A stretch of 64,000 nucleotides of DNA, taken from positions 45,777 to 109,776 of the forward strand of contig CAZERF010000001.1 of the NCBI GenBank assembly GCA_964515375.1, given 5' to 3'. A program made the translations under genes and the position numbers. The notes below the pieces were generated by a model. It did no database searches and was not told the origin of the DNA. It was given only the letters and a program-made list of their open reading frames with translations. This DNA comes from an uncultured Candidatus Saccharibacteria bacterium (GTDB taxonomy: Bacteria; Patescibacteriota; Minisyncoccia; Phycocordibacterales; UBA6899). This document shows positions 9,866 through 48,081 of the stretch, one piece after another. Each line of letters begins with the position of its first letter. Position 1 is the stretch's first letter.

Positions 9866-9938
9866 GGTACGGCGGTGATGGTGGTTCCTTTGAGGAATCG
9901 AACCATGATGAGATGTGAATGTTATTTTTGCTCCCGTA
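9866..9938 (+). repeat. Direct repeat copy 2 (73 bp), overlapping the 5' end of tRNA-Arg
   Basis: Exact copy of 9657-9729. Confidence 0.8.
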
Positions 9939-10001
9939 GTTCAATGGATAGAACAGCTCCGTCCTAAGGAGTTGATGGTGGTTCGATTCCTCCCGGGAGC
10001 A
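9930..10001 (+). tRNA. tRNA-Arg (anticodon CCT)
   Basis: Hand-folded. The acceptor stem is GCTCCCG/CGGGAGC. The D arm is GTTC-AATGGATA-GAAC. The anticodon stem is GCTCC/GGAGT with loop GTCCTAA. The T arm GGTGG-TTCGATT-CCTCC has one U-U mismatch. No CCA is encoded. Confidence 0.65.
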
Positions 10002-11515
10002 CAAAACAAGACTTCTGACGAAGTCAACGAGCGCGGCGAAGCCGCGCGAGAAAAAGAAAAAGGAGAAATACGCCGTCGCTCCGCGACGAAATGGCTGGGC
10101 GAGGACACGGAAAAGTGGGCGGCTTTGTCACGAACTGCATGGTTCGTTCCAATTTTTTGGACGAAGTCGGCAATTTCGGAGAAATTGTCAGACGAGGACA
10201 AAAAAGTGGCTTGTTTCGTATCTTTTACCCACTCCCGCAATGGTTCGATCCAAGTATTTCCCCGACGTTCACAATCTTTCTTTTTCTCGTTCAAAGTTGC
10301 GAGAGAGCGCATGGTAGCATCCTTCTTTTTCAGATAAATCTCTTTGGGTATGTCTCCATCCAAGTATGTTGAAACGAGTTTGTCCATGCGCTCCTCGTCC
10401 GCTTTGATTTTTTCGGAAAGATTGCGAACCTCGCTCCCTGAAACGGAAGTAGCTTCTTGCTCCCATGTCTCAACTTGCTCCAACATCCAATCGGTATAGC
10501 GATCAGGGAGCGAGATTGTTTGAAGCCGTACTTGCAACTGCTCTGCGAGGTTTCGCTCTTGCACGTACCCTTGCGAGCAAGTGCCGTGCTTTTTGGTACA
10601 GCGATAGTAGCGATAGATACCACCATTGCCTTTGGCGTGTTGCGCCGTGAACATGCCACCGCACTCCCCACAGCGAAACAAGCCAAGAAACGGAAAGTCA
10701 TGCCTGTTCCTTCGCTTCGGCGCACGCGCCTTGCTCGCAAGAACTTTTTGCACGGCTTCAAACAATGTCGGTGAAATAATTGGTTCAAATGTGCCATCAA
10801 ACCATTCACCATTGTGGCGAACAAAACCGAGATATGCTCGATTGCTCAAAAGGTGCCTGACGGCACATTTGGCAAGTGGCTTTCCTTTCGAACTGGTAAC
10901 GCCTAAATCCGCCAAAAACTGCGACAAACTAACAAGACCATGCGTGCCTTTGGCATATTCCTCAAAAGCGCAAGCAACAATCTTTGAATTAGTCGGATGA
11001 GGTTCGATGTTTCTCGTTTTCTGATTGTTCACATACCCAAACGGCGCTTTGGTGAGCCATTCGCCACGGCGCAGTTTTTGGCGGATGCCTCTTTTCACAT
11101 TCTGTACCAAATTGTCCGAGTAGTATTTAGATTGCCCAAAAGCCACTTGCAACATAAAGAGCCCTTGCGGAGTGGGTTCAAACCAAAAGGTCGGAAAGCG
11201 CAAAGACACAATACGCTCGGTATCCACCGCATAGATGACGCGGCCTCCATCAATACTATTTCTAGCCAGACGGTCGGGGTGCCATGCGAGTATCCCCGAA
11301 GCTTCTCCCGTTTCAATGCACGTCATCATCTCATTAAAAATAGGACGACCGGGTGTCTTTGCGCTTTTCGACTCTTGAAACTCCGACAGAATTTCAAGAT
11401 TTTCTTTACGTGCAAATTCATGTAGTTCAAACAACTGCGCTTCTATACTCATGACTTGTTTATCGTCATCTTCGGTGCTTTTTCGAGCGTAAAGAAAATA
11501 TTTTGGTTTGATCAT
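9941..11515 (-). CDS. Large serine recombinase (resolvase/invertase N-terminal domain + recombinase domain + zinc ribbon)
   Basis: The N-terminus YARKSTEDDDKQ carries the catalytic Ser in the resolvase motif. DRLARN and a recombinase domain follow. The zinc ribbon is CGECGG...YYRC. The C-terminal ~60 codons of the ORF are encoded by IR1-left and end inside the tRNA-Arg gene. The true stop may therefore differ. Confidence 0.85.
   Translation of the reverse strand: MIKPKYFLYARKSTEDDDKQVMSIEAQLFELHEFARKENLEILSEFQESKSAKTPGRPIFNEMMTCIETGEASGILAWHPDRLARNSIDGGRVIYAVDTERIVSLRFPTFWFEPTPQGLFMLQVAFGQSKYYSDNLVQNVKRGIRQKLRRGEWLTKAPFGYVNNQKTRNIEPHPTNSKIVACAFEEYAKGTHGLVSLSQFLADLGVTSSKGKPLAKCAVRHLLSNRAYLGFVRHNGEWFDGTFEPIISPTLFEAVQKVLASKARAPKRRNRHDFPFLGLFRCGECGGMFTAQHAKGNGGIYRYYRCTKKHGTCSQGYVQERNLAEQLQVRLQTISLPDRYTDWMLEQVETWEQEATSVSGSEVRNLSEKIKADEERMDKLVSTYLDGDIPKEIYLKKKDATMRSLATLNEKKKDCERRGNTWIEPLREWVKDTKQATFLSSSDNFSEIADFVQKIGTNHAVRDKAAHFSVSSPSHFVAERRRISPFSFSRAASPRSLTSSEVLFCAPGRNRTTINSLGRSCSIH
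9999..10129 (+). repeat. Inverted repeat IR1, left copy (131 bp); it starts inside the 3' end of tRNA-Arg
   Basis: Its reverse complement is identical to 11567-11697 (checked base by base at both ends). Confidence 0.85.
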
Positions 11516-18492: not shown

Positions 18493-21400
18493 ATGAACTC
18501 CGTATACCCATCTTATAAACGTCCATTCTACCTCATGCTTCGCCCGGTCTTCGTGTGGATCATGACCTTTTCTTTGCTACTCCAAACGAGTGCTGTTCTT
18601 CCGCTTGTCGCGGATGCGAACGTACTTGTGAATGTGTCACATTCGGACGGCACAACATCGACCTACGATCTGAAGGAAACCGAGGACGACATCATTGTTT
18701 CGTACTCCATGGGGGAAACGGATGGATCGGGCGCTCCGACTCTCGATGCGCTCTCCGGCCTGCTTGGCCTTTTGGATTCTTCCCTTACGGAGGTGAAGGC
18801 GGAAACGTCCTGCACGGGGAACGGAACTGCGACGGCAAGTGCGAGCGTGACGGATACAGTCACGATCGAAGGCGAGACGGTTGTTGCGACAGCGAGCGCG
18901 CAATCGACGGTGACCTGTTCTGACGGCGAAACAACCCCCGTCAACACTCCTCCCTCCGTGACGCTTCTTGGCGGAACCCCGATGTCCGTGACGCTTGGTA
19001 CATCCTTTGTCGATCCAGGTGCGAACGCCACCGACGCGGAGGATTGTGTCGGACTCACACAGAGCGCGTGTAATACGGCGTTGTCCTTGACGGCGACGGG
19101 TGTCGTGAACACGAATACTCTTGGAACCTACACGATCACCTACACTGCACGCGATTCGAGTGGAGCATTGGCCGTTCCTGTCACTCGTACGGTTATTGTG
19201 ATCGCTCCGTCAACGACAGAGTGTCGTGCTCCGAGTGATATTATGCTTGCGATCGATCGTTCGGGAAGTATGAATGATGATGGGACAAATCCTGATCAAC
19301 CGATGACCTTTGCGAAGGATGCGGCAAAGAACTTTATTGATAGTCTCTCTGCAACAGATGATCGTGTTGGAGTGGTGTCTTTTAGCACTCTCGCGCGACT
19401 CGATGTGTCTTTGACGAATGATTTCCCTCAAGCAAAATCGGCGCTCACCGGACTCATCGCGGAGGGGTGGACAAATATTGCTGAAGCGCTTCTTTTCTCC
19501 TCGAACGACCTTACTGCGAACGGACGAACCAACGCTCGTCAGATCATTATTTTGCTCTCCGACGGAAGACCGGAACCTGACACGAACGCTGGCACCGTTG
19601 CCGCGATCCAGAACGAAGGGGTATGTCATCTACACGATCGGGCTCGGTTCTGGAATTTCTGCTCCGCTTATGCAGGAGATCGCCACGAGTCCCGCGCACT
19701 ACTTCTTCGCGGCATCCGGTACCGACCTCGACGCCATCTATCAATCCATCTTGAGTGTTGAATGTGCACTTCCGAAAGGTTCCGTTTCGGGCCACAAGTA
19801 TCATGATGTTGACGCAAACGGTTCCTTTGGAGACGGCGACACTGTCGTATCGGGATGGGGGATCACCCTTACTCCGAACTCGAGCACTCTTGGCTCTCCT
19901 CGTACGGTGACCACCGACTCTTCCGGCGCGTATACATTCACTGACGTTCAAGCCGGAGACTATACATTGTGTGAGGCGTCGCGAAGCGGATGGACGCAGG
20001 TGGCACCGACCGCGAATAACGGTTGTTACCTTGTCTCTGTTGTCGACAACGTGGATCTGACCGGAAAGAATTTTTACAACAAAGAGCAGGTGACTCCGCC
20101 CGTCAACACTCCTCCCTCCATCACGCTTCTTGGTGCGAACCCGCTCTCGCTGACTGTTGGTGCATCATTCACCGATCCGGGTGCGAACGCTACCGACGCG
20201 GAGGATTGTGTCGGACTCACACAGAGCGCGTGCAATACGGCGTTGTCCTTGACGGCGACGGGTGTGGTTAATACCGGTTCAATCGGCACTTATACTGTTA
20301 CCTATACCGCTCGTGACTCACAGGGTCTTCAGGCGATTCCGGTGACTCGCACGGTAAATGTGATCGCGCTTCCTCCTCCCGACAACACTCCTCCGGTGAT
20401 CACCGTACTTGGGAACAACCCGCTTTTGGTTCGCATCGGTACTATCTTCACCGACCCGGGTGCGACCGCTGCTGATGCTGAAGATGGCAACATTACCGAC
20501 GATATTGTGAAGACCGGCACCGTGAACACGGCGCAGGTGGGGAACTATACGATCCGCTACAACGTCACTGACTCCGACGGGGCAGCGGCAACGGAGAAGA
20601 CCCGCACGGTCACCGTGTTCTCCGCATGTTCCGACGGTCTCGACAACGATGGCGACGAAACGATCGACTTGAATGATGAAGGATGCACTGATCCGAACGA
20701 CGACAGCGAGAACGAGAAGCCGGTCATTGAACTCATTGGCGAGACTCCCATGTCCGTGACCCTTGGTGCAACCTTTACCGATCCGGGCGCCAACGCGACC
20801 GATACGGAAGATTGTATCGGGCTCACACAGAGTGCGTGCAACACCGCACTTCAATTGACAGCGACGGGTGTTGTGAACACGAATACTCTTGGAACCTACA
20901 CGATCACCTACACGGCACGCGATTCGGAAGGTCTTGAGGCGACTCCGGTCACGCGTACTGTGAACGTGGTCTCCACACCTCCGCCCGCCAATACACGCCC
21001 CGTTATTACGCTCCTTGGCGCGGACCCGCTTTTGGTTCGCATCGGTACAACTTTTGCTGATCCGGGTGCGAACGCCACCGATGCAGAGGATTGTGTCGGA
21101 CTCACACAGAGCGCGTGCAACACCGCACTTCAATTGACAGCGACGGGCACCGTGAACATCGCGCAAGTGGGGAACTATACGATCACCTACACGGCGAAGG
21201 ATTCTCGGGGACTCGAAGCGACTCCGGTCACGCGTACGGTCACCGTGTTCTCCGCATGTTCCGACGGCGTCGACAATGACGGCGATGAAACGATCGACTT
21301 GAATGATGAAGGATGCACTGATCCGAACGATGACAGTGAGAACGAGAAGCCGGTCATCACGTTGCTTGGAAATGTCGCCATGCAACTCATCTTGGGCACG

Positions 21401-30795: not shown

Positions 30796-32217
30796 TTACT
30801 GTTCGATGACCTTGAATGATTGCCTTATTCCTCCTCCGGTGAGGATGATCGTGCTACGAGAGAAATTGCTGAGAGTTGCGGTTTTTTCGGTCGTTCCCAA
30901 TGTTGTGGGGGTGAAGGCAATGGTGAATTCCTGCGAACTGCGCGGGGGAAGGTTGTATGTGCAGACGCCAACGCAGGCGAAGGGAGCCGGGATGATCAGT
31001 GTTCCCACGCCGGCATGGGTCACGAAGCTCGGGTTGTTGATACGAAGGGTGAGCTTTTCTGTTTTTCCGACTACAGTGGGAGGGAAGTCGAGTCGTTCAT
31101 TGATCGACAACAGCTGTCCCTCTCCGTTCACGAATCGCTCTGCGTCGCCGCCTCCCGAAAAGTTGACAGTGGCGATGCGTGTTCCGACACTTCCGGTCGG
31201 TGCAAAGCGGATAACAACCTCCTGTTCGTGATCGCGTCCGATGTTTGCATATCCGCACGAGACACACGAGAAGCCCATTCCCGCCTGCACTACCGCGGAT
31301 CCAGAGAGGAGTGTCCCTTCTGGTCCGACATTTTTGACTCGAAAGACTCCTTCAAGTGTGTCGCCAAGCTCGACTCCATAGAAAAAGAGTGTCGGGTTGG
31401 GGGAGACCGCAATGATGGGGGTCGGTGCGGAAGGAGTGCCGGACGGGGGAGTCACTCCGGTTCCGTTCCCGGGCACGGTCACATTTCCTCCCCCGGAGAA
31501 TCCTATGTCTGTTGTTTTCGACCCTTCGGTTGTGGGAGTGAAGGAAATCGTGACCGGATGTTCGGTTCCGGGGGTGATGTTGTTGTACGTGCATCCGGTG
31601 ACGCAGGTGAAGGAGGGGTCTCCCGCGAGTGTGACGCTTCCAGTGAGCTCTGATGATGCTCCGCCGGTGTTGGTGACCGTAACGGTAAGGGTCTTTGTTT
31701 CATTGACGGTCACTTCGTTGTAGTGAAGTGGGGAAGGCGAAACAGTGATGACAGGGATGGTTGCGGGGTCAGGGTTGGTGACCGATCCAACTACGCCGTC
31801 GATAACGTTTCCGAGGAGGTCGGTTACGTCATCAATGAACGAACCGGTGTCTCCCGAGATGCTCACGCTGACTGTGGCGAAGTAGGTGATCCCCCAGTCG
31901 CCGACACAGGTGAACTGCCATTCGTAGACCGCCGGGCCTGCCCATCCGGAAAGTTCTCCCGAGTCATAGGAGGTTCCCGAGGGAAGCGGTTGGTCTTTCC
32001 ACTCCCATGTCGTTCCGTTGTTCAAACGTGACCATGTGCAGGAGTTCACCCCGTCTGAGGTCATGGTGACGCGAAACTTATCCAATGAGTCAATGGAGTT
32101 GGACGAAGCCGTTGCGCTGATCGACCCCGCAAGGGCGGCAAAGGGGAGCGACGCTCCAAAAATAAGAGTAATAAAAAAAGTTGAGATGTGGGATGAAATT
32201 CTCTTCATGAGAGCCAT
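30796..32217 (-). CDS. Secreted protein with three repeated ASH/choice-of-anchor-D-like beta-sandwich domains
   Basis: A signal peptide is followed by three ~100-aa repeats with the pattern V.V.P..L.F..V..G.T......V.N.G...L.GS....G..F.C..C...I.....E..V.I.F.PT..G. Confidence 0.65.
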   Translation of the reverse strand: MALMKRISSHISTFFITLIFGASLPFAALAGSISATASSNSIDSLDKFRVTMTSDGVNSCTWSRLNNGTTWEWKDQPLPSGTSYDSGELSGWAGPAVYEWQFTCVGDWGITYFATVSVSISGDTGSFIDDVTDLLGNVIDGVVGSVTNPDPATIPVITVSPSPLHYNEVTVNETKTLTVTVTNTGGASSELTGSVTLAGDPSFTCVTGCTYNNITPGTEHPVTISFTPTTEGSKTTDIGFSGGGNVTVPGNGTGVTPPSGTPSAPTPIIAVSPNPTLFFYGVELGDTLEGVFRVKNVGPEGTLLSGSAVVQAGMGFSCVSCGYANIGRDHEQEVVIRFAPTGSVGTRIATVNFSGGGDAERFVNGEGQLLSINERLDFPPTVVGKTEKLTLRINNPSFVTHAGVGTLIIPAPFACVGVCTYNLPPRSSQEFTIAFTPTTLGTTEKTATLSNFSRSTIILTGGGIRQSFKVIEQ

Positions 32218-39741: not shown

Positions 39742-40401
39742 TCATTGATAGGTGACCCCGAAGCTTTCAACGGAACCGGGATGGAGCGCGACCGAGGAAA
39801 TGGGGAAGAGACGCAAGAGTGCTTCGCCGTTCATGAGTCTTGTGGGGACGGGGCCCCAGATACGTGAATCGGAGCTTTGCGCGCGATTGTCTCCCATCAC
39901 AAAGAACTCATCATTGTCGAGCGTGCGGGAGAGGTTGTCGTTCTTGCGATTTTGCACATATGGTTCTTCGAGGACAAGCGGGGTGGTTCGTGTTGCGCTA
40001 GTGATCGAAACGACACCGTTTCTGATCGTGACCGTTTCGCCGGGGAGTCCGATCACGCGTTTGATGAAATATTTTGACGGGTCGTTTGGATAGCGAATGA
40101 TCACGACATCTCCGCGATGGTATTCGCCAAAGTATTTAATGGTCTCGTTGACGATGAGGTACTCCCCGTTGTGGTAGGTGGGGTACATAGAGTTCCCCGA
40201 CACAATGAAGGGTTGCGCAATGAAGATGCGGACCGGCACGATGATCACAAGGGCGACGAGCGCGTATTTGATCGTTTCCCATACGACTTCGAGCCATGAT
40301 GATTCTCCTGCCGGGTCATTTTCGTTGTGGTGCCCGCTCCCGGTCTTGGAAGGCAGCGAAGTGTCGCGGAGATTCTCAGTCTCGTTATTGTGCGCGTTCA
40401 T
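39742..40401 (-). CDS. lepB: Signal peptidase I
   Basis: There is an N-terminal TM helix. GNSMYPT is the Ser box. GDNR and the other conserved boxes are present. Confidence 0.9.
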   Translation of the reverse strand: MNAHNNETENLRDTSLPSKTGSGHHNENDPAGESSWLEVVWETIKYALVALVIIVPVRIFIAQPFIVSGNSMYPTYHNGEYLIVNETIKYFGEYHRGDVVIIRYPNDPSKYFIKRVIGLPGETVTIRNGVVSITSATRTTPLVLEEPYVQNRKNDNLSRTLDNDEFFVMGDNRAQSSDSRIWGPVPTRLMNGEALLRLFPISSVALHPGSVESFGVTYQ

Positions 40402-40473
40402 ATTTGCGCTCCATCATACGCCAAAAAATCGTTTGACACAATAGAATATTTCATGATCAAGAATTGTCGTACG

Positions 40474-41994
40474 CTAGATTCCGTAGATGGTTGGAAGCAT
40501 GGAAAGTGAAGTTGCAATAATGAAGATGATCGAAAGGATGAAGAGGACACGAGGAAGGAGGCGGTCCTTAGTGAGTAGGGTCAAGCAGCGCAACAGTCGT
40601 GGCGCGGCGTAGGGTAAAAGGAGGAAGAGAAAAAGTAGCGCTGTAAAGTAGTGATAGAGGAACATTGAACGATCAATGAGGAAGAAGGGAACATAGTTGG
40701 CGAGGTATCCAACAATGAGAAGTGTTTCATTGCGTCCGATAGGCCACTTTTTTTGTATCATCACGACCGCCCCGATCCAGAGGATGTTGAAGATGAAACA
40801 TAGGAGCGCAATGTTCCAGAGAAATGCGTTTCCGCGAAAGATGATCTGCGCGGGGCGATCGTCGGGAAGCCATGTGAACAATTGCGCCTTTGCAATCGAC
40901 CATGAGAGTGGGTGTGGGGCCTTCGGAAGGAATGCTGACGCGTTGGGGTCCGTATTTGCTTCCCATATCGCACGATGGAGGTCACCCACAAAGAGGATCT
41001 TCTCGTACACTCCCGCATCTCTCGGGAGTGAAAGCGACTCAACGTACGAGAAACGATACGTATCAAGTACGGGGTCGACGGGTCCTCCTTTGGGGAAATA
41101 ATCAAGGAAGTAAAAGAATGACAAAAAGTAAATGAATATCGTTATGACCCCGATCGCGACCGCTTCGCCGATCTTGCGCTCCGAAAGGAAAAAGAGTCCG
41201 ATCACGCCAAGCATGCCGAGCGCGACCCATTTGACACTCACTGCTGCGCCGATCAGAATACCTGCCAATATGACCAGGAGGTAACGCACGGTCTTCTTTT
41301 TTTCTCGCAAGGCGAGGACGGCGACGAGAAGGGCGGAAAATTCAAGGAGAATCATGAGCGAATCCGGAAGGATCGTTCGTGAGTAGACAATGAGCGCCGG
41401 TTCGAGTGCGACAAAAAATCCGATGAGTCCCGCGACCATGCGTGACGAGCCGAGTGCGCGCGCGAGCGCGAAGAGTACGAGAGGGATGAGAATACCGAGT
41501 ATCGCCGTTCCTGTACGTAATGGGACGTAGGGGAAGTCTAGGAATGTTTTTGTTTCCGCGACTGTGCGCGTGAATGCGAGCGTGTATGGGGATAGGTCTT
41601 GTGTAAGGAATATCTCGGTCATCATGATCCGAGCAAGTGGCGGATGAATGTCGAAATAGACATTCCCCCCCGCGGAGAGCAGAGTGAACGCGGAATAGAT
41701 CCGCTCGTCAAAGATCGGTTCGTTGGGATGGTCCAGTGCGGGGAAACGGAGAAGTATGCTGACGAGAAGCAGTGCAAGGATCAGGAGTAGGTCTTTCTTT
41801 CTCTCGGAAAAAGGGGGGGAATGTTGCAGGGTGTGACGGGCGAAATGCTTACCGGTGCTTAGGCTGTGCCGTATTCTCGCAAGTATACGATCTGAGAACT
41901 TCTTCTTGTGTGTGGTCATGTAAAGAGATTTGCTATAATGGAGCGTGCCTGTATTTGCGTTCATCATAACAAACCTGGACGATCTTGGCATCAT
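40474..41994 (-). CDS. GT-C fold glycosyltransferase, family 39-like (protein O-mannosyltransferase/ArnT-like)
   Basis: The 506-aa polytopic ORF has a DERIY (DE motif) in the first periplasmic loop and HPPL shortly after, the hallmark pair of PMT/GT39-type enzymes. Confidence 0.65.
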   Translation of the reverse strand: MMPRSSRFVMMNANTGTLHYSKSLYMTTHKKKFSDRILARIRHSLSTGKHFARHTLQHSPPFSERKKDLLLILALLLVSILLRFPALDHPNEPIFDERIYSAFTLLSAGGNVYFDIHPPLARIMMTEIFLTQDLSPYTLAFTRTVAETKTFLDFPYVPLRTGTAILGILIPLVLFALARALGSSRMVAGLIGFFVALEPALIVYSRTILPDSLMILLEFSALLVAVLALREKKKTVRYLLVILAGILIGAAVSVKWVALGMLGVIGLFFLSERKIGEAVAIGVITIFIYFLSFFYFLDYFPKGGPVDPVLDTYRFSYVESLSLPRDAGVYEKILFVGDLHRAIWEANTDPNASAFLPKAPHPLSWSIAKAQLFTWLPDDRPAQIIFRGNAFLWNIALLCFIFNILWIGAVVMIQKKWPIGRNETLLIVGYLANYVPFFLIDRSMFLYHYFTALLFLFLLLPYAAPRLLRCLTLLTKDRLLPRVLFILSIIFIIATSLSMLPTIYGI

Positions 41995-42000
41995 TCACTC

Positions 42001-43386
42001 ATGAAGTTTTCTCTCATTATTCCTATACACAACGAAGTTGCGGTGATCGGACGTACGATCGGTTCATTGCGGGACGTGTTTGACGAATATGTTCCCGAAG
42101 GAGACTCGTGGGAGATCATCGTTGTTGATAATGCGTCGACCGACGGTTCTGTTGAGGTGATACGCGAATACTCCGACCCACGCGTGCGTATCGTGGAACT
42201 TTCTGAAAAGGGGAAAGGACGTGCGGTGCGTGCGGGTTTTTATGCTGCAACGGGTGACGTGATCGGTTTCACCGATGCTGATCTTTCTGTTTCCCCGGAG
42301 ACACTTCTTGCTGCGTTCTTTGCGTGTGCAACGGAGGTCCCTGTTGTCGTCGGCTCGCGTGCTCATCCGGCGAGTGCTCTCCCTGAACGCGAGTGGTGGC
42401 GGACAACCAGCTCTCGCGTCTTCAATCTCATGACACGCGCAATCGTTGGTGTGCGTGTTTCTGATACGCAGTGTCCGCTCAAGGTTCTTCGGCGAGAACA
42501 TCTTCCGTTCATTCTTCTTTCCGTTGATCAGACTTGGTATTTTGATATTGAATTCTTTGCCTTACTCGAGCGTTCCAGTGTCCCCTTTGCGGAAATTCCT
42601 GTTCAGTGGGAGGAACATCGGTATCCCGAACGCAAGAGTAAGTTGAGTACAGTGCGCGACGGTGCTCGGTCGATACCGGCGATGATGCGTATTCGACGGA
42701 GACTCCGGGGACAGCTGGCGGAACTTGCAAAAACACACCATAATGATGCTCATATGCAATGGATCATTGTTGGGTTGGGAAATCCGGGAGGAGAATACGC
42801 GCGCACTCGTCACAATGCGGGGCGGATCGTTCTTGAAGCACTGCGACAACGAATGGGGTGGGGTCCGTGGGAATATCGAAAGACTCATGACGCGCTCATC
42901 GCGCACGGGGACCTTGCGGGACACTCGATACTTTTGGTTGAACCCGAGACGTACATGAACGCATCAGGGAAAAGTTTGGTTTCGCTCGTGAAGGATCCCG
43001 ACCATGCGACACGGCTTGTCGTTATTCATGACGATGTGGATCTTCCGTTGGGGGAATGGCGATTTGCGTATGAACGAGGATCGGGAGGGCAGAAAGGCAT
43101 TGAGTCGATCATGTCCACATTGCGCACTCGCGCATTCGTTCGTGTGCGTATCGGTGTTGCGCCGACATTGGAAGAGGGAAAAAAACGGAAGAAGGCGGGG
43201 GATATGGTCTTGGAGAAGTTTCGTGAAGAAGAGCTGGCGCGCATCGAGCATATCGGTAAGGGGGATCAGCTTTCCGAAGCCCTCACATCGCTTGTTGTTG
43301 ACGGGCTCGAACTCTCCCGAAGCAAATGGAAGAAGTGGAAAGACAACCCTTCCGCTCATGAGGGGAAGGGGCTCAATCTTCTTTGA
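42001..43386 (+). CDS. pth: In-frame fusion: GT2 polyprenyl-phosphate sugar synthase (DPM1/GtrB-like) + peptidyl-tRNA hydrolase
   Basis: The N-terminal ~250 aa has IPIHNE, VVDNASTDGS and FTDADLS (DxD), a GT2 DPM1-like domain. The C-terminal ~190 aa has MQWIIVGLGNPGGEYARTRHNAG...VIHDDVDLPLG, the Pth signature. There is no stop between them. The start was taken at ATG 42001 (MKFSLIIP). The track begins at 41908. Confidence 0.8.
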   Translation: MKFSLIIPIHNEVAVIGRTIGSLRDVFDEYVPEGDSWEIIVVDNASTDGSVEVIREYSDPRVRIVELSEKGKGRAVRAGFYAATGDVIGFTDADLSVSPETLLAAFFACATEVPVVVGSRAHPASALPEREWWRTTSSRVFNLMTRAIVGVRVSDTQCPLKVLRREHLPFILLSVDQTWYFDIEFFALLERSSVPFAEIPVQWEEHRYPERKSKLSTVRDGARSIPAMMRIRRRLRGQLAELAKTHHNDAHMQWIIVGLGNPGGEYARTRHNAGRIVLEALRQRMGWGPWEYRKTHDALIAHGDLAGHSILLVEPETYMNASGKSLVSLVKDPDHATRLVVIHDDVDLPLGEWRFAYERGSGGQKGIESIMSTLRTRAFVRVRIGVAPTLEEGKKRKKAGDMVLEKFREEELARIEHIGKGDQLSEALTSLVVDGLELSRSKWKKWKDNPSAHEGKGLNLL

Positions 43387-45343
43387 CCCGACTACCTTCT
43401 TCAAGTTTGTAGATGAATATCGTCGTTCCTACCCGATAGTCGGGCAGAGGTACCCCTCCTGTTGTATTTTCTTTTGGTCGCAACGAGAGGAGCCATGCGT
43501 AGGAGTCATGTGTGCGGTGTTTGTAGAGATGACTATACATTGGATCGGCATGAGCGAGTGCGTATTCCAGTGAAAATATCGAACTCGCAAACCACTTGAT
43601 CCCGAAATCGCGAGGATCTCCCATCAAAGAATTCCATCGGATCACTTGCCCTGGGAGAAAATACTCGGGGTTGCCTGAGCCAAAATAATCCATCGCGATC
43701 TTCTCGCCATCCAAATGCTCATTCGCCCAGTCCCTGAATCTCAAAACGTCTTGACCCCAATCGTAGTTCGAGTCGCTCATATAACGGTATCCGCCAAAGA
43801 CTCCACCACCTAGTTGGTTTGTATATGAAAGGAAATATGGAGCACTCAATATCGTTTCGCTTATGTGCCATATGATCATGACGACGATCAGTGCGTTTTT
43901 TACGTCGATACGCCTTTCGTTCACGCTCCATTTTCGTAGTGCGGCCGTGATGAGGATGTAAAGGGGTGGAATAATGGGAAGCAAATGCCGCACCCCGAGC
44001 TGAAGCGGACTTCGCAAGGTTATTATTATGTATAGGTATACAAACAACCCAAGCGCATAAAGGAGGAAATGGTTCTGCAGTGAATCTGATACTCGTTGCG
44101 CAAAATTCTTTTCTTGCGCCGATCGGACGAACACACCGAGGGAAACAAAAGCGGCGAGCATGAGGAAAAGGAGTGCCGGGATGCTTTCCTTCAGTGAAAA
44201 GACAACAGGGAAATAGAGTGCGATCCTGTCGTTCGTTAGTTCTCCAAAGAAATATTTCGGATTTCCCGACCTTATTCGCTCTTGTACTTCTTGGATACCA
44301 AGTGCGTATTGCGCAAAAGGCCGGAGTGCATCGTTCCCTGCGGCAATGATCGTTGCCTCCGCGACACATCGCAGTGGAACGCAGTTTTCTCCTGATTTTG
44401 TTGGTCCTCCTCGAACGTTTTGGAGCGATAGTTCCGTATCAGAAACTTGTTTTTCGATCGGATAGTTTCGGGTGAATAAAAAATAGAGTGGGTAGATCAC
44501 AAGTGCGTACCCAATGAGAAATACGCATACGGTTGTTGTCAGGCTTTTCGAAAAGAACGCGAGAGCGGATCGGTATTCCTTTCTTGTGGAAGGACTTGCG
44601 ATGACTGCCCATGCGCCGGCAAGCACTAAAAAGAAAGGAATCAAAAGTATTGACGAGAACTTGATTGCCTGAGCAAGACCAAACGCAAGTCCCGCAATGA
44701 TGAGTCTTTTTTGTGAGGGTTCTTGTAATGCCTTCACGAAGAGGGTGATCGCAAGTAGTACCCCGAATGCACCCGGAAGGTCGGTGGCCACATAGTGTCC
44801 GTGCGCGAGCACGGTAGGAGAGAGGGCAAAGAGTGTTGTGGGGAAAAGCGCCCACGTCGACCCAAAGAGACGTCGTGCGACAAAGAAGATAAGGAGAGTA
44901 ACGAGGAGTGTAATGAGGATGGGGATAAGTCGCGCCAAAAACAATAGCTGATGCGGATCATTCCCGGACTCGTAGAGGAATATCCGACCTATTTCCCATT
45001 GTTTTTCTTCTCCATTTTCCCATTCCGGTGCGTCGGAGGGGAAGAAGGGGTCGATGAAGACAAGGGGGAGTGCGGAAAGTGCCTTGATGAGTGGGGGATG
45101 TTCGGGATTGAGTCTACTGTCGCGCTCGTGGATATATCCATATCCTGCGGCAATATGAGGCGGTTCATCTGAGGTTGCGGAGTCGGTCCATGCCGCAAAG
45201 AGCATGAGTGATGTCGAGACAAGAATGACTACACCTAATGCTATCGGCGCAAAAGCGGCATGTGCCCCGACGTGAAATAAGTTTTTAATATGACTCCGCA
45301 TGAACTTTAGGTATCGATCACTCTTTCGGTAATTGCTCCCCAT
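43373..45343 (-). CDS. GT-C fold glycosyltransferase, family 39/83-like (second paralog)
   Basis: The 656-aa polytopic ORF has DEPPH...Y and HPPL motifs near the N-terminus, as in PMT/ArnT enzymes. Confidence 0.6.
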   Translation of the reverse strand: MGSNYRKSDRYLKFMRSHIKNLFHVGAHAAFAPIALGVVILVSTSLMLFAAWTDSATSDEPPHIAAGYGYIHERDSRLNPEHPPLIKALSALPLVFIDPFFPSDAPEWENGEEKQWEIGRIFLYESGNDPHQLLFLARLIPILITLLVTLLIFFVARRLFGSTWALFPTTLFALSPTVLAHGHYVATDLPGAFGVLLAITLFVKALQEPSQKRLIIAGLAFGLAQAIKFSSILLIPFFLVLAGAWAVIASPSTRKEYRSALAFFSKSLTTTVCVFLIGYALVIYPLYFLFTRNYPIEKQVSDTELSLQNVRGGPTKSGENCVPLRCVAEATIIAAGNDALRPFAQYALGIQEVQERIRSGNPKYFFGELTNDRIALYFPVVFSLKESIPALLFLMLAAFVSLGVFVRSAQEKNFAQRVSDSLQNHFLLYALGLFVYLYIIITLRSPLQLGVRHLLPIIPPLYILITAALRKWSVNERRIDVKNALIVVMIIWHISETILSAPYFLSYTNQLGGGVFGGYRYMSDSNYDWGQDVLRFRDWANEHLDGEKIAMDYFGSGNPEYFLPGQVIRWNSLMGDPRDFGIKWFASSIFSLEYALAHADPMYSHLYKHRTHDSYAWLLSLRPKENTTGGVPLPDYRVGTTIFIYKLEEGSRVKED

Positions 45344-45478
45344 GATACATCATTTTGTGTCGCTCAGTCGAATAGAACTTTTGCGCGCTCTTTTGTGTTG
45401 ATCAAAAAATACGAGATACAAAAAGCGACCATCGTGGCCGCTTTTTGTGTGTTGCTCTTGAATACTCTTGAACAGAGG

Positions 45479-46600
45479 TTACGCTTTCTTTTCTCCCGAG
45501 AATGACAGTGTCATGCGCTGATCCTTGGGCTCAAAGAGTGTGATCGTGAACGGATAGGTTTTTCCGAGCTCAAGTGTTGAGCGAAGTTTTTCCTCACTTC
45601 CGAACTCCGAGACGTGAACAAGTCCCGCGACACCCTCTTCGATCGAAGCGAGGGCCCCGTACTTGTTGAACTTGATGATGACCCCACGGATCACGTCGCC
45701 CTTCTTGTACTTCTTCTCGGCACCCTTCCATGGGTTCTCCTTGAGCACTTTGACCGAGAGAGAGACCTTGTTGTCCTTGATCTCAATGATCTGGGCCTTG
45801 AGCTTCTCTCCGACCTTGAAGAGTTTGCGCGGATCTTCGACGAGTCCCCAGTCCATCTCGGAGATGTGAATGAGTCCTTCGAGTCCGTCTTCGATCTTCA
45901 TGAAGGCGCCAAAGTCGACGATACCAGTGATCTCTCCTTCGACGATGTTGCCCAAGCGATATTTTGAAACGATCTCCTCCTTCTCTTTTTGGTTGTGTTC
46001 CTTTTCCGAGAAGATGAGCTTGCCCTCCTTGGGGACGGCGGTGATCATGATGACGGAAAGTTTCTCGCCGGCAAGCTTCTTCAGCTCGTCGAGGATCTTG
46101 TCCTTATCACCATCTTCCACGCGCGGGTAGTGCTCTCCCGAGAGTTGAGATGCCGGAAGGAAACCGGAGATTCCTTGCCACTCGAGAATAAGTCCGCCCT
46201 TGTTCGCATCCTTGACGGGGAGATCGAGAACGGTCTTCTTGCGCACGAGCTCCTCGGCTTCCGCCCAGATGAGTGATTGACGCGCCTCCTTGAGCGAGAG
46301 TTCGATATATCCGTCCTCATTCTCACTCTCGACGACCTTCGCGGTGATCACGTCACCGATATTCATGTGCTTGATAAGGTCGCGTGCGTTCATGTACTCA
46401 CGCCCGTAGATGATGCCGACTCCGAACGGAGGAACATCGACAAAGACCGCGCGTTTGTCTACGCGAATCACGGGAGCCTCGACGATCGAACCCGGTTCCG
46501 GGCGCGTGCCGATCTCGGTCATAAATTTGGCCATCGCGTTGTCGGGCGAGAGAATATTCTCCGCTCCTTCCACGATAACCTCTTCTGTCGTTGTGGTCAT
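45479..46600 (-). CDS. rpsA: Ribosomal protein S1-like protein with four S1 domains
   Basis: Repeated S1 OB-fold modules are present (GSIVEAPV..., GDVITAKVV..., GEKLSVIM..., GNIVEGEI...). The start was chosen at the internal ATG (MTTTTEE). The track ORF extends 60 codons further upstream to 46780. Confidence 0.75.
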   Translation of the reverse strand: MTTTTEEVIVEGAENILSPDNAMAKFMTEIGTRPEPGSIVEAPVIRVDKRAVFVDVPPFGVGIIYGREYMNARDLIKHMNIGDVITAKVVESENEDGYIELSLKEARQSLIWAEAEELVRKKTVLDLPVKDANKGGLILEWQGISGFLPASQLSGEHYPRVEDGDKDKILDELKKLAGEKLSVIMITAVPKEGKLIFSEKEHNQKEKEEIVSKYRLGNIVEGEITGIVDFGAFMKIEDGLEGLIHISEMDWGLVEDPRKLFKVGEKLKAQIIEIKDNKVSLSVKVLKENPWKGAEKKYKKGDVIRGVIIKFNKYGALASIEEGVAGLVHVSEFGSEEKLRSTLELGKTYPFTITLFEPKDQRMTLSFSGEKKA

Positions 46601-47628: not shown

Positions 47629-48081
47629 ATGTGGGAGTTTTTGGACAATTTGCGCAAGAAGCCGGAGCACGTGCGACATCAAATCGCCTTTTTCGTCAGC
47701 TCGGGAGTTTTTGGGCTCATTGTGTTTATGTGGTATGCCGCGGGAGGTATCGCCCCTGCAAGTTCGCGTGCCTTTTCCGAGGTGAGCACGCCGCTTTCAG
47801 TTGTCGCCAAGACGCTGGGTGGGGTAAAGAATGAAACACAAATGATGGCATCAACCTTCCGTGCCGACCTGGAAGAACTTCTCCTTCAAAATGCCTCAAC
47901 CTCCCTCTCTGATGTTGATACGATCACTGAAACAAGAGAACACATAGCGGACATTCTTGATTCGCCGCCGGAAGGATCATCCGGAACTTCCTCCGGTCTT
48001 GGGACCACCGCCCCGCCTTGGAGTTTTGAAGAGGAACAAGAGTACAACCAGGTAACCGATATAAGCGAAGAAACACTATGA
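47629..48081 (+). CDS. Hypothetical membrane protein
   Basis: The 150-aa ORF has one N-terminal TM helix. It overlaps the gyrA start by 4 nt. Confidence 0.45.

What the first reader, a model, noticed from the sequence alone, without database searches (positions are those of the whole stretch)
40474..45343. GT39-like / GT2::Pth fusion / GT39-like cluster, a candidate polyprenyl-phosphate-sugar dependent glycosylation system
Two divergently arranged GT-C-fold membrane glycosyltransferases carry the DE-x-x-Y...HPPL signature of protein O-mannosyltransferases/ArnT. They flank a gene in which a DPM1/GtrB-like GT2 polyprenyl-phosphate sugar synthase is fused in-frame to peptidyl-tRNA hydrolase. The donor-synthase plus transferase pairing mirrors Ppm1/PMT protein O-mannosylation in actinobacteria. 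The Pth fusion is unusual and could couple an essential translation factor to envelope glycosylation, or could simply be gene fusion in a streamlined genome.
Basis: partly seen in the sequence, partly recalled or inferred. Interest (0 to 1): 0.55.

Follow-up and report, generated by a model that had tools for sequence, protein, structure and literature searches.

The report
Glycosylation genes with fused Pth hitchhiker
A small uncultivated (Paceibacteria-type) bacterium carries the genes for a lipid-carrier-dependent surface glycosylation pathway, and the sugar-donor enzyme is joined to the housekeeping peptidyl-tRNA hydrolase, most likely because two tightly packed neighbouring genes lost the stop codon between them.

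Summary
Three intact ORFs lie at 40474-45343:
- a bacterial-type PMT (GT39-like, no MIR domain);
- an in-frame GT2::Pth fusion (461 aa from ATG 42001);
- a PMT_2-type GT-C protein.

The fusion is not an assembly error. The identical product occurs in three assemblies, and about 12 relatives at 42-88% identity are also fused.

Unfused relatives keep GT2 immediately upstream of pth, with an ATGA stop/start overlap, a 9-nt in-frame spacer, or larger gaps up to 1 kb. All fusions keep the ancestral Pth start Met. Fused and unfused lineages interleave on the tree, so the state changed at least twice. AlphaFold gives two independent domains joined by a disordered linker. I read the fusion as a by-product of gene packing, not a mechanistic coupling.

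Comparative evidence supports the glycosylation reading. Relatives of this GT2 occur fused to PMT_2 or GtrA. Relatives of the PMT occur fused to GtrA. Sister loci carry GtrA in the same slot between lepB and rpsA.

The second GT-C is a recent neighbour. Its orthologues elsewhere sit beside DUF4012, not GT2.

Sugar, acceptors and flippase remain unknown for this genome. Interest is modest.

The parts
39742..40401 (-). lepB (signal peptidase I). It lies immediately downstream of, and co-oriented with, the PMT gene. It is the conserved left anchor of the locus.
   Evidence: Pfam Peptidase_S26 1.9e-42. The order lepB-PMT (or lepB-GtrA) is conserved in L001, L002, L009, L012, L014, L092 and L093.
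40474..41994 (-). GT-C#1: bacterial-type protein O-mannosyltransferase homologue (PMT/GT39-like, no MIR domain). The likely real start is ATG 41919 (481 aa).
   Evidence: Pfam PMT 1.6e-23 and PMT_4TMC 6.2e-21. phmmer against PDB hits yeast Pmt4 at 6.6e-16 and Pmt1 at 4.6e-14, with DE and HPPxA aligned and the C-terminal 4-TM region also matched. A hydropathy scan finds 9 or more hydrophobic segments. JGI calls a 481-aa product and NCBI a 505-aa product.
41920..42000 (.). 81-bp divergent intergenic region between the PMT gene (if it starts at 41919) and the GT2::Pth gene.
   Evidence: Sequence read. The consensus promoter scan of the region is at chance level. No Shine-Dalgarno motif precedes either start, as for other genes of the window.
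42001..42753 (+). GT2 half of the fusion (aa 1-251): a TM-less, DPM1/ALG5/ArnC-like candidate polyprenyl-phosphate hexose synthase. It ends in a long basic helix (aa 217-249) and a disordered linker (aa 247-251).
   Evidence: Pfam Glycos_transf_2 7e-30. The best solved relatives by sequence are ArnC (6e-13) and P. furiosus Dol-P-Man synthase (1.6e-9). Invariant residues include N11-E12, D48, D92-x-D94 and D155-x-Q-C-P-x-K. No TM helix is predicted. The nearest database relatives outside the clade are named dolichyl-phosphate beta-glucosyltransferase and are often fused to GtrA or PMT_2.
42754..43386 (+). Pth half of the fusion (aa 252-461 plus stop). It begins at the retained ancestral initiator ATG (M252) and is a PTH1-family peptidyl-tRNA hydrolase.
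   Evidence: Pfam Pept_tRNA_hydro 6e-44 and TIGR00447 144 bits against a cut-off of 100. N10, H20, N68 and D93 (E. coli numbering) are conserved. The model matches M. tuberculosis Pth with TM 0.83-0.85. M252 is invariant in all 12 fusions, while the preceding linker varies.
43373..43386 (.). 14-bp overlap of the 3' ends of the convergent GT2::Pth and GT-C#2 genes.
   Evidence: ORF coordinates and sequence. The last 16 residues of the fusion are unconserved and have pLDDT below 50.
43373..45343 (-). GT-C#2: a PMT_2-family GT-C glycosyltransferase with a C-terminal extracytoplasmic alpha/beta domain. The likely start is ATG 45301 (642 aa). It belongs to a large, strongly conserved Paceibacterota family.
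   Evidence: Pfam PMT_2 5e-14. 963 homologues were found, mostly at 42-51% identity and about 640 aa, with many invariant residues including DE...EHPPL. The AlphaFold model has pLDDT 81.7 and pTM 0.87. Foldseek matches STT3/AglB, Pmt4, ArnT and ALG9 at E 1e-5 to 5e-7 with TM at most 0.47 on the query. There is no PDB sequence match. It sits at this position only in the window, L001 and L098.

Best explanation
The locus encodes the cytoplasmic donor synthase and the extracytoplasmic transferase(s) of a lipid-carrier-dependent, 'three-component' type glycosylation pathway.

Proposed mechanism (inferred, not shown):
1. The GT2 domain sits at the membrane surface through amphipathic basic helices. 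It transfers a hexose from a nucleotide sugar to polyprenyl phosphate.
2. The lipid-linked sugar is flipped. In sister genomes a GtrA-family protein is available for this. In this window no flippase was found.
3. The PMT-type GT-C enzyme transfers the sugar on the outer face. The likely acceptors are Ser/Thr of Sec-exported proteins, given the conserved lepB-PMT pairing.
4. The PMT_2-type GT-C#2 may draw on the same donor pool.

The Pth domain is the ordinary PTH1 peptidyl-tRNA hydrolase. Its gene lay immediately downstream of, and was translationally coupled to, the GT2 gene. Loss of the stop codon or a frame change joined the two, and the old initiator Met was retained. The fusion is a tolerated, evolutionarily labile consequence of gene packing. 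The two domains work independently. Free Pth may additionally be made from the internal ATG.
For: Shown here:
- Domain identities with scores above curated cut-offs.
- PMT alignment to yeast Pmt1 and Pmt4, including the DE motif and the 4-TM C-terminus.
- The GT2 half is closest to ArnC and Dol-P-Man synthase among solved proteins.
- Fusions of relatives link the parts: GT2+PMT_2 (P0023, P0275), GtrA+GT2 (P0024 and others) and GtrA::PMT (P0414, P0396, P0405).
- Sister loci carry GtrA in the same lepB...rpsA slot: L014, L093 and L012.
- Junctions in unfused relatives: ATGA overlap in L014; TAA plus 9 nt plus ATG in the same frame in L012; spacers of 21 nt, 122 nt and 0.8-1.0 kb in the others.
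- The fused clades A (92% bootstrap), B (100%), P0011/12 (100%) and P0013 interleave with unfused lineages.
- A QKG motif and a 5-residue deletion in Pth are shared by fused clade A and unfused L012/L015.
- The catalytic Pth residues are intact.
- The AlphaFold model has both domains confident but pTM 0.54 and linker pLDDT below 50.
- The identical product occurs in three assemblies.
- Only 3-4 clusters at 50% identity among 1.84 billion representatives carry this architecture.

Precedent: mycobacterial Ppm1 is fused to Lnt in M. tuberculosis, but is a separate adjacent gene in M. smegmatis (PMC3460810).
Against: - The fusion has persisted within clade A down to 58% identity, so it is not transient.
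- M252 is invariant in all fusions although the linker around it is free to vary.
- Synonymous sites just upstream of M252 are more conserved than the gene average. Between the window and L001, 18 of 20 third positions are identical against a 64% mean. Across three sequences, 11 of 16 codons are fully conserved against a 48% mean, p about 0.08. Something constrains the junction.
- No GtrA-like flippase was found in the 64-kb window.
- No NCBIfam equivalog cut-off is reached for the GT2 half, so the sugar is unknown.
- GT-C#2 is adjacent only in close relatives.
- Only 64 kb of the genome could be searched for a second pth.
- The tree is neighbour-joining with moderate support on its deeper nodes.
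Confidence: 0.66

Rival explanations
1. The fusion is adaptive coupling. Tethering the cell's Pth to the membrane-associated GT2, next to the Sec/LepB/PMT machinery, or making the two activities strictly equimolar or co-regulated, gives a functional link between translation quality control and envelope glycosylation.
For: The fusion is retained across sequences as divergent as 42% identity. The GT2-pth neighbourhood is conserved even where the genes are unfused. The locus lies among lepB, hisS, rpsA and rpsU. In the Ppm1-Lnt precedent the fused partners turned out to be functionally linked (PMC3460810).
Against: Fused and unfused states interleave phylogenetically, and close relatives differ. 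In L007 and L015 the two genes are 0.8-1.0 kb apart. No confident inter-domain packing is predicted: pTM 0.54 with a disordered linker. No known biochemical connection exists between Pth and polyprenyl-phosphate sugar synthesis (own knowledge). The architecture is very rare.
Confidence: 0.12
2. The gene gives two products. The ribosome also initiates at the retained internal ATG (42754), so free Pth is made alongside full-length GT2::Pth. The 'fusion' would then be largely a read-through form of a still bicistronic arrangement. This is compatible with the best explanation and refines it.
For: M252 is invariant in 12 of 12 fusions, while the 7-8 linker residues before it vary. The GC content of the 25 nt upstream is 0.32, lower than at 98.7% of internal in-frame ATGs in the window and similar to true starts (mean 0.41). 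Synonymous-site conservation is elevated upstream of the ATG. This genome uses no Shine-Dalgarno motif, so an internal start would need none.
Against: The predicted local mRNA folding energy at the internal ATG is -10.1 kcal/mol. That is typical of internal ATGs (mean -10.7) and not of true starts (mean -6.1). The three-sequence conservation test is not significant, p about 0.08. There are no expression data.
Confidence: 0.3
3. The fusion is an assembly or sequencing artefact: a missed stop codon or a frameshift between two separate genes.
For: Unfused relatives exist with only 0-9 nt between the genes, so a single base error could mimic a fusion. One long-read contig (L092) does carry multiple frameshift errors.
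Against: The identical 461-aa ORF occurs in three independent assemblies. Intact fusions occur in L001 (87%), L098 (88%), L002-L005 (53%, four contigs), L006 (45%) and L093 (42%).
Confidence: 0.02
4. The GT2 domain is not a lipid-phosphate sugar synthase. It would be a soluble GT2 acting on another acceptor, for example a glycolipid or a wall polymer precursor, and its neighbourhood with GT-C genes would be coincidental.
For: It has no transmembrane segment. No NCBIfam equivalog reaches its cut-off, and generic GT2 families also match.
Against: The best solved relatives are ArnC and Dol-P-Man synthase. Relatives at 38-42% identity are fused to PMT_2 or GtrA. The divergent partner in every sister locus is PMT and/or GtrA. 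TM-less polyprenyl-phosphate mannose synthases are known: mycobacterial Ppm1 (PMC3460810) and human DPM1 (own knowledge).
Confidence: 0.08

Closest known systems
Actinobacterial Ppm1 / Pmt protein O-mannosylation (polyprenyl-phosphate-mannose synthase plus GT39 PMT)
   Same: Both have a TM-less GT2 donor synthase and a bacterial PMT without MIR domains that carries the DE motif and the PMT_4TMC region. In both, the synthase is fused to its neighbouring gene in some lineages and separate in others. Ppm1 is fused to Lnt in M. tuberculosis and separate in M. smegmatis (PMC3460810).
   Different: The fusion partner here is Pth, a cytosolic translation-rescue enzyme with no known link to the envelope. 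Database names of the nearest GT2 relatives point to ALG5-like glucosyl rather than mannosyl transfer, so the sugar is unknown. The host is a Paceibacteria-type CPR bacterium, not an actinobacterium (names).
Three-component (Gtr-type) extracytoplasmic glycosylation systems: GtrB/CsbB/PgfS GT2, GtrA/GtcA flippase, and a GT-C transferase
   Same: The logic is the same: a GT2 makes polyprenyl-phosphate-sugar and a GT-C uses it outside the membrane. All three components are present in sister loci. Streptococcal GtrB/PgtC2 and PgfS/PgfM1 glycosylate Ser/Thr-rich regions of exported proteins in this way (PMC11092751; PMC7389260 and PMC11127046, listed).
   Different: GtrB, ArnC and PgfS carry C-terminal TM helices, and this GT2 has none. 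No GtrA was found in this window. The GT-C enzymes here are PMT and PMT_2 types, not YfhO or GtrC types.
PTH1 peptidyl-tRNA hydrolase (E. coli Pth, M. tuberculosis Pth)
   Same: It scores above the TIGR00447 equivalog cut-off. The catalytic residues N10, H20 and D93, plus N68, are conserved. The fold matches with TM 0.83-0.85.
   Different: It sits at the C-terminus of a GT2 enzyme. H113-N114 is replaced by Q-K. K or R at position 114 is common among related stand-alone Pth proteins.
ArnT / PMT_2-family GT-C enzymes ('glycosyltransferase family 39 protein' in NCBI annotation) - comparison for GT-C#2
   Same: It matches Pfam PMT_2 and has invariant DE and HPPL motifs near the first extracytoplasmic loop. 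It has a GT-C fold.
   Different: It has no sequence match to any solved structure. Its fold matches STT3, Pmt4, ArnT and ALG9 about equally, with TM at most 0.47. It has its own conserved C-terminal alpha/beta domain and a conserved Cys pair. Its usual genomic neighbour is DUF4012.

Membership tests
GT39 protein O-mannosyltransferase (PMT) - GT-C#1 | N-terminal PMT domain (Pfam PF02366) above the gathering score | tested here: met
   84 bits against a cut-off of 22.7.
GT39 protein O-mannosyltransferase (PMT) - GT-C#1 | C-terminal four-TM region (PF16192, PMT_4TMC) | tested here: met
   75.2 bits against a cut-off of 32.4. The region also aligns to yeast Pmt4 and Pmt1.
GT39 protein O-mannosyltransferase (PMT) - GT-C#1 | Asp-Glu (DE) motif in the first extracytoplasmic loop, followed by HPP(L/F) | tested here: met
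   IFDERIY aligns with Pmt4 VFDEVHF, and DIHPPLARIM aligns with DVHPPFAKMM.
GT39 protein O-mannosyltransferase (PMT) - GT-C#1 | MIR domains in the large luminal loop (the eukaryotic PMT architecture) | tested here: not met
   The protein is 481-506 aa with no MIR match. Bacterial PMTs also lack MIR (own knowledge), so this separates it from eukaryotic PMTs only.
GT39 protein O-mannosyltransferase (PMT) - GT-C#1 | Transfer of mannose from polyprenyl-phosphate-mannose to Ser/Thr of proteins | not testable with these tools
   This needs biochemistry or glycoproteomics. The conserved lepB adjacency is only circumstantial.
GT39/PMT_2 - GT-C#2 | PMT_2 (PF13231) above the gathering score, with invariant DE and HPPL motifs | tested here: met
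   53.2 bits against a cut-off of 26.1. D45, E46 and E67-H68-P69-P70-L71 are invariant in 34 homologues.
GT39/PMT_2 - GT-C#2 | PMT_4TMC C-terminal region, or close similarity to a solved PMT | tested here: not met
   There is no PF16192 match and no PDB sequence match at E up to 0.1. Foldseek ranks STT3, Pmt4, AglB, ArnT and ALG9 similarly.
GT-C fold glycosyltransferases - GT-C#2 | Polytopic GT-C fold with an extracytoplasmic C-terminal domain | tested here: met
   The model has pLDDT 81.7 and pTM 0.87. There are 23 PDB matches at E up to 1e-3, all GT-C enzymes.
Polyprenyl-phosphate glycosyltransferases of GT2 (DPM1 / ALG5 / GtrB / ArnC type) - GT2 half | GT-A GT2 domain with a DxD motif | tested here: met
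   PF00535 at 7e-30. D92-A-D94 is invariant in 18 sequences.
Polyprenyl-phosphate glycosyltransferases of GT2 (DPM1 / ALG5 / GtrB / ArnC type) - GT2 half | Closest characterised relatives are lipid-phosphate sugar synthases | tested here: met
   In PDB, ArnC scores 6e-13 and Dol-P-Man synthase 1.6e-9, both over about 210-260 residues. The top NCBIfam matches are ArnC and PgfS.
Polyprenyl-phosphate glycosyltransferases of GT2 (DPM1 / ALG5 / GtrB / ArnC type) - GT2 half | C-terminal transmembrane helices (the GtrB / ArnC / archaeal DPMS subtype) | tested here: not met
   No TM segment appears in the hydropathy scan or the model. It therefore resembles the TM-less subtype (mycobacterial Ppm1, PMC3460810; human DPM1, own knowledge).
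Polyprenyl-phosphate glycosyltransferases of GT2 (DPM1 / ALG5 / GtrB / ArnC type) - GT2 half | Assignment to a named equivalog, which would give the sugar specificity | tested here: not met
   All NCBIfam matches are far below their cut-offs, for example ArnC at 53.9 bits against 529.
Three-component (Gtr-type) glycosylation system | GT2 synthase and GT-C transferase encoded together | tested here: met
   The arrangement is conserved in L001, L002, L006, L009, L012, L014 and L092.
Three-component (Gtr-type) glycosylation system | GtrA-family flippase | tested here: not met
   An HMM built from the GtrA domains of P0414, P0396, P0402 and P0405 finds nothing in the 64-kb window (best E 0.26). 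GtrA is present in sister loci L012 (fused to PMT), L014 and L093. The rest of this genome could not be searched.
PTH1 peptidyl-tRNA hydrolase - Pth half | Equivalog-level profile match | tested here: met
   TIGR00447 scores 144.1 bits against a cut-off of 100.
PTH1 peptidyl-tRNA hydrolase - Pth half | Catalytic residues N10, H20 and D93, plus N68 (E. coli numbering) | tested here: met
   All are conserved in an alignment with E. coli Pth.
PTH1 peptidyl-tRNA hydrolase - Pth half | N114 of the GGHNG motif | tested here: not met
   The motif here is GGQKG. K or R at this site occurs in 38 of 94 related Pth sequences collected here, so it is probably tolerated.
PTH1 peptidyl-tRNA hydrolase - Pth half | Hydrolysis of peptidyl-tRNA; the sole pth of the genome | not testable with these tools
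   There is no second pth in the 64-kb window. The rest of the genome is not available.

The most novel reading that the evidence does not exclude
The covalent link is selected for. It would hold the cell's only peptidyl-tRNA hydrolase at the membrane beside the Sec/LepB/PMT export and glycosylation machinery, or make donor-sugar synthesis responsive to translational stress. In these minimal-genome episymbionts, rescue of dropped-off peptidyl-tRNA would then be spatially or regulatorily coupled to co-translational secretion and surface glycosylation. Three observations are compatible with this but do not demonstrate it: the invariant internal Met, the constrained junction and the conserved GT2-pth adjacency.
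Probability: 0.07. Interest if true: 0.7.

Novelty: new variant of a known kind. Interest (0 to 1): 0.3.

Why it matters
Patescibacteria (CPR) live attached to host cells, and their surface proteins and pili are thought to be central to that lifestyle. Almost nothing is known about how they decorate their envelope.

This locus and its relatives show that one Paceibacteria lineage keeps a compact PMT-type, lipid-carrier-dependent glycosylation module. The module comprises GT2, GtrA and PMT, next to lepB, and is embedded among core housekeeping genes. That gives a concrete handle for glycoproteomic or heterologous-expression work.

The GT2::Pth fusion itself is mainly a well-documented example of how overlapping, translationally coupled neighbours in a compact genome flip between separate and fused states. 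It is also a caution against reading such 'Rosetta stone' fusions as evidence of a functional link. In the same gene family, the fusions to GtrA and PMT_2 are informative, while the fusion to Pth probably is not.

Tried and rejected
- The genome-contig scan listed L012 and L013 as matching residues 1-416 and 1-434, as if fused. Inspection of the junctions showed stop codons 3 and 7 codons before the pth ATG. In L012 the stop is in the same frame, which is why tblastn joined the two. They were reclassified as unfused.
- Proteins with two matched stretches in the representative search (P0260, P0266, P0287, P0291, P0302, P0319, P0333) looked like possible independent GT2::Pth fusions. Pfam shows them to be GT2-GT2 tandems or Mur-ligase/Pth-Pth proteins.
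- Two GtrA HMMs were built from the wrong end of the GtrA-GT2 proteins and hit only the GT2 domain itself. They were discarded. The HMM built from the PMT-fused GtrA domains was used instead.
- Foldseek of the fusion model returned only Pth structures in its top 50, so it gave no information on the GT2 half.
- The promoter and terminator consensus scan of 40300-45600 was at chance level.
- The Shine-Dalgarno test for an internal start is uninformative, because genes in this window lack such motifs.
- The mRNA-folding and upstream-GC tests gave contradictory answers. Synonymous-site conservation at the junction is suggestive in one pair of sequences but not significant with three.
- The first NJ tree used wrongly framed GT2 sequences for three loci and was replaced.
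- Literature searches for a GT2-Pth fusion or for PMT in Patescibacteria found nothing relevant.
- The 513-aa gene downstream of the fusion in L003 has 7 hydrophobic segments but no significant Pfam match, so it could not be called a GT-C.

Full report
**What is there**

The region 40474-45343 holds three long ORFs.

GT-C#1 (40474..41994, minus strand, 506 aa):
- It matches Pfam PMT (84 bits) and PMT_4TMC (75 bits), both far above their gathering scores.
- Against solved structures it hits only fungal protein O-mannosyltransferases: Pmt4 at 6.6e-16, Pmt1 at 4.6e-14, and Pmt2.
- Its FDERIY and DIHPPLA motifs align to the catalytic-loop DE motif and the HPP(F/L)A motif. Its C-terminus aligns to the Pmt four-helix C-terminal region.
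- It lacks MIR domains and has nine or more hydrophobic segments.
- JGI starts it at ATG 41919 (481 aa) and NCBI starts it at 505 aa. With the shorter start, 81 bp separate it from the divergent gene.

The middle gene:
- The mechanical ORF call starts at GTG 41908, but every homologue starts at MK.SLIIP, which is ATG 42001.
- From there it is one open frame of 461 codons ending at 43386.
- Glycos_transf_2 covers residues 4-168 (7e-30). Pept_tRNA_hydro covers residues 255-436 (6e-44).
- The pth equivalog TIGR00447 scores 144 bits against a cut-off of 100.

GT-C#2 (43373..45343, minus strand; 642 aa from ATG 45301):
- It matches PMT_2 (53 bits) and weakly PMT.

Both GT-C genes are on the minus strand. 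GT-C#1 is divergent from the fusion gene. GT-C#2 is convergent with it, and their 3' ends overlap by 14 bp.

The surroundings are housekeeping genes: ftsZ, ftsA, ybeY, an S21-like gene, hisS and lepB on one side; rpsA, an MBL-fold gene and gyrA on the other. Names attached to homologues place the organism in Paceibacterota/Parcubacteria.

**Is the fusion real?**

Yes.
- The identical 461-aa product is encoded on an NCBI contig of 239,949 bp, on a JGI metagenome contig and on a Logan assembly.
- Intact fusions of 448-466 aa occur at 87-88% identity (L001, L098), at 58-59% (P0004-6), at 50-53% (P0007-9, on four contigs), and at 42-45% (P0011-13).
- In a library of 1.84 billion representatives at 50% identity, the architecture occupies only three or four clusters (P0005, P0011, P0013, and the partial P0020). 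Other candidates with two matched stretches turned out to be GT2-GT2 or Pth-Pth proteins.

The fusion is therefore genuine, rare, and confined to one small Paceibacteria clade.

**Where the fusion came from**

Relatives with a stand-alone GT2 of 245-263 aa have pth as the next gene on the same strand.

| Locus | Junction between GT2 and pth |
|---|---|
| L014 | GT2 stop TGA overlaps the pth ATG (ATGA) |
| L012 | TAA, then 9 nt, then ATG in the same frame |
| L013 | 21 nt |
| L009 | 122 nt |
| L015 | about 0.8 kb |
| L007/L016 | about 1.0 kb |

- The stand-alone GT2 proteins end within a few residues of where the fusion's linker meets M252. M252 aligns with the initiator Met of the free Pth proteins. 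A single substitution in the stop codon (L012 type) or a one-base frame change (L014 type) is enough to make the fusion.
- In a neighbour-joining tree of the concatenated halves, the fused sequences form clade A (P0001-6, 92% bootstrap), clade B (P0007-9, 100%), P0011/12 (100%) and P0013. Unfused lineages lie between them.
- Independently of the tree, a GGQKG motif (in place of GGHNG) and a five-residue deletion in Pth are shared by fused clade A and by the unfused L012 and L015, and by none of the others.

The fused or unfused state has therefore changed at least twice. I cannot say in which direction.

**State of the two halves**

Pth half:
- It keeps N10, H20, N68 and D93 (E. coli numbering).
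- N114 is Lys here, but Lys or Arg at that site is common among the related free Pth sequences collected (38 of 94).
- The AlphaFold model of the fusion has mean pLDDT 82. Both domains are confident, but pTM is only 0.54 and the linker (residues 247-251) is below pLDDT 50. No fixed inter-domain arrangement is predicted.
- The Pth part superposes on M. tuberculosis Pth with TM 0.83-0.85.

GT2 half:
- It has no transmembrane helix.
- It ends in a 33-residue basic helix (residues 217-249, with the conserved RIRRRL).
- It has a conserved REWWRT..SSR.FN helix. I infer that these are membrane-interface helices.
- Its best solved relatives by sequence are ArnC (6e-13) and the P. furiosus dolichyl-phosphate mannose synthase (1.6e-9).
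- Outside the clade, its nearest database relatives are named dolichyl-phosphate beta-glucosyltransferase.
- No NCBIfam equivalog cut-off is reached, so the sugar is open.

**Evidence that this is a lipid-carrier glycosylation module**

Three kinds of comparative evidence agree.
1. Relatives of this GT2 at 38-42% identity are fused to PMT_2-type GT-C domains in both orders (P0023, P0275). More distant relatives are fused to GtrA.
2. Relatives of GT-C#1 carry an N-terminal GtrA domain (P0414, P0396, P0402, P0405). P0414 is the PMT of the L012 genome.
3. The slot between lepB and rpsA holds different combinations of the same parts in sister genomes:

| Locus | Gene order |
|---|---|
| L012 | lepB - GtrA::PMT <> GT2, pth - PMT |
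| L014 | lepB - PMT - GtrA <> GT2/pth |
| L093 | lepB - GtrA <> GT2::Pth |
| L002 | lepB - PMT - methyltransferase - PMT <> GT2::Pth |
| Window, L001, L098 | lepB - PMT <> GT2::Pth - GT-C#2 |

This is the pattern of the three-component systems described for Gram-positive bacteria. It includes protein O-glycosylation of Ser/Thr-rich regions by GtrB/PgtC2 and PgfS/PgfM1 (PMC11092751; PMC7389260 and PMC11127046). It is also the pattern of actinobacterial Ppm1/Pmt.

The conserved co-orientation of PMT with lepB suggests that Sec-exported proteins are the acceptors. That is an inference.

No GtrA-like gene was found in this 64-kb window. The flippase of this genome is unknown.

**GT-C#2**

- It belongs to a large and strongly conserved Paceibacterota family: 963 hits, mostly 42-51% identical and about 640 aa. 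Dozens of residues are invariant, including DE, EHPPL, a Cys pair and a DSNYDWGQD motif.
- The model (pLDDT 81.7, pTM 0.87) has a GT-C membrane domain and a small C-terminal alpha/beta domain.
- It matches STT3/AglB, Pmt4, ArnT and ALG9 about equally, at E 5e-7 to 1e-4 and query TM at most 0.47. There is no sequence match in the PDB.
- Orthologues in other genomes sit beside DUF4012, lepA and alanine racemase, not beside GT2 or pth. Its presence here is limited to this species and its 77%-identical relatives.
- It may use the same donor. The evidence for that is only the recent adjacency and the general need of GT-C enzymes for a lipid-linked donor.

**Is the junction under selection?**

- M252 is invariant in all twelve fusions, while the seven or eight residues before it vary freely.
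- The 25 nt upstream have 32% GC. That is lower than at 98.7% of internal in-frame ATGs of the window and similar to true starts.
- Third-position identity between the window and L001 is 18 of 20 in the 20 codons before M252, against a gene mean of 64%.
- With a third sequence, 11 of 16 informative codons are fully conserved against a mean of 48%, p about 0.08.
- Against an internal start, the predicted folding energy around this ATG is -10.1 kcal/mol. That is like other internal ATGs (mean -10.7) and unlike true starts (mean -6.1).
- The genome shows no Shine-Dalgarno motifs, so that criterion is silent.

Internal initiation that yields free Pth is plausible but unproven.

**Verdict**

The eye-catching GT2::Pth fusion is best explained as a tolerated and repeatedly made or unmade join of two tightly packed, probably co-translated neighbours. 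The closest analogy is the Ppm1-Lnt fusion of M. tuberculosis against the split genes of M. smegmatis (PMC3460810). In that case, however, the partners are functionally related.

I found no description of this architecture in the searchable literature.

It is a new variant of a known kind of system, of modest interest. The coupling hypothesis is not excluded, but it has no positive support beyond the persistence of the fusion and the constrained junction.

Noticed in passing
window, upstream of about 20 gene starts (e.g. 39688, 40401, 36213, 48078, 42001): None of the inspected genes has a Shine-Dalgarno-like motif upstream of its start. Instead, true starts show lower upstream GC (0.41 against 0.54) and weaker local mRNA structure (mean -6.1 against -10.7 kcal/mol) than internal ATGs. 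This suggests SD-independent initiation in this organism.
   Followed up: partly
window 43373-45343 (GT-C#2) and homologues P0121-P0240; L096 3768-5795, L097 3917-5938: The GT-C#2 family is very strongly conserved across Paceibacterota/Minisyncoccia. More than 100 columns are invariant in 34 sequences at about 45% identity, including a Cys pair (C307, C312) and a DSNYDWGQD motif. In other genomes it is divergently paired with a DUF4012 protein of about 675 aa. It looks like an important envelope enzyme of unknown substrate.
   Followed up: partly
window 47629-48081 (+); L001 13636-14091; L007 13777-14139; L092 7171-7611: A small protein of 120-151 aa, with no Pfam match in this window, has one N-terminal TM helix and a Ser/Thr-rich tail in the window copy. 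An unannotated gene of this size lies between the MBL-fold gene and gyrA in all four loci, but sequence similarity between the copies was not checked. It is a possible O-glycosylation substrate.
   Followed up: no
window 18493-19761 (+) and 30796-32217 (-): Two ORFs of 422 and 473 aa have signal-peptide-like N-termini and Ser/Thr-rich stretches (38-42% S+T over 40 residues). They are candidate exported glycoprotein substrates.
   Followed up: no
L006 4109-5242 (-): In the P0011 lineage, the gene convergent with GT2::Pth occupies the slot held by GT-C#2 in the window. It encodes a Thr-rich protein (TPTTTKTTFTSTTLTATAP...) without TM segments, which is a possible substrate encoded next to the glycosylation genes.
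   Followed up: no
L003 2140-3681 (-): In the P0008 lineage the same slot holds a 513-aa protein with 7 hydrophobic segments and a DPDMGWHIRTGEW motif in its first loop. It has no significant Pfam match (DUF6541 at E 0.004). It is possibly another, unclassified GT-C-like membrane enzyme.
   Followed up: partly
window 43060-43075 region (Pth residues about 362-366); P0001-6, P0010, P0242, L012, L015: The conserved Pth motif GGHNG is GGQKG in this sub-clade, and there is a 5-residue deletion downstream. The H113Q change is confined to this clade. N114K/R is widespread among related Pth proteins.
   Followed up: partly
L092 (ENA ERZ25039499 contig_75390): This contig splits PMT, GT2::Pth and a methyltransferase into pieces by frameshifts. 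The pattern is typical of long-read assembly errors, so the apparent 320-aa 'Pth-only' protein P0010 is an artefact of that.
   Followed up: yes
window 9930-10002 (+) and 9941-11515 (-): tRNA-Arg(CCT) overlaps the start of a 524-aa minus-strand ORF as mechanically called. That ORF's real start is probably further downstream. The window holds 11 tRNA genes.
   Followed up: no
L002 5444-6394, L006 233-1225, L009 3801-4508: In several sister loci a methyltransferase gene (Methyltransf_21 or Methyltransf_11/23) sits directly beside the PMT gene. P0306, a GT2 relative at 35% identity, is fused to a methyltransferase. This hints that the transferred sugar or the acceptor may be methylated in those lineages. 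There is no such gene in the window's module.
   Followed up: no
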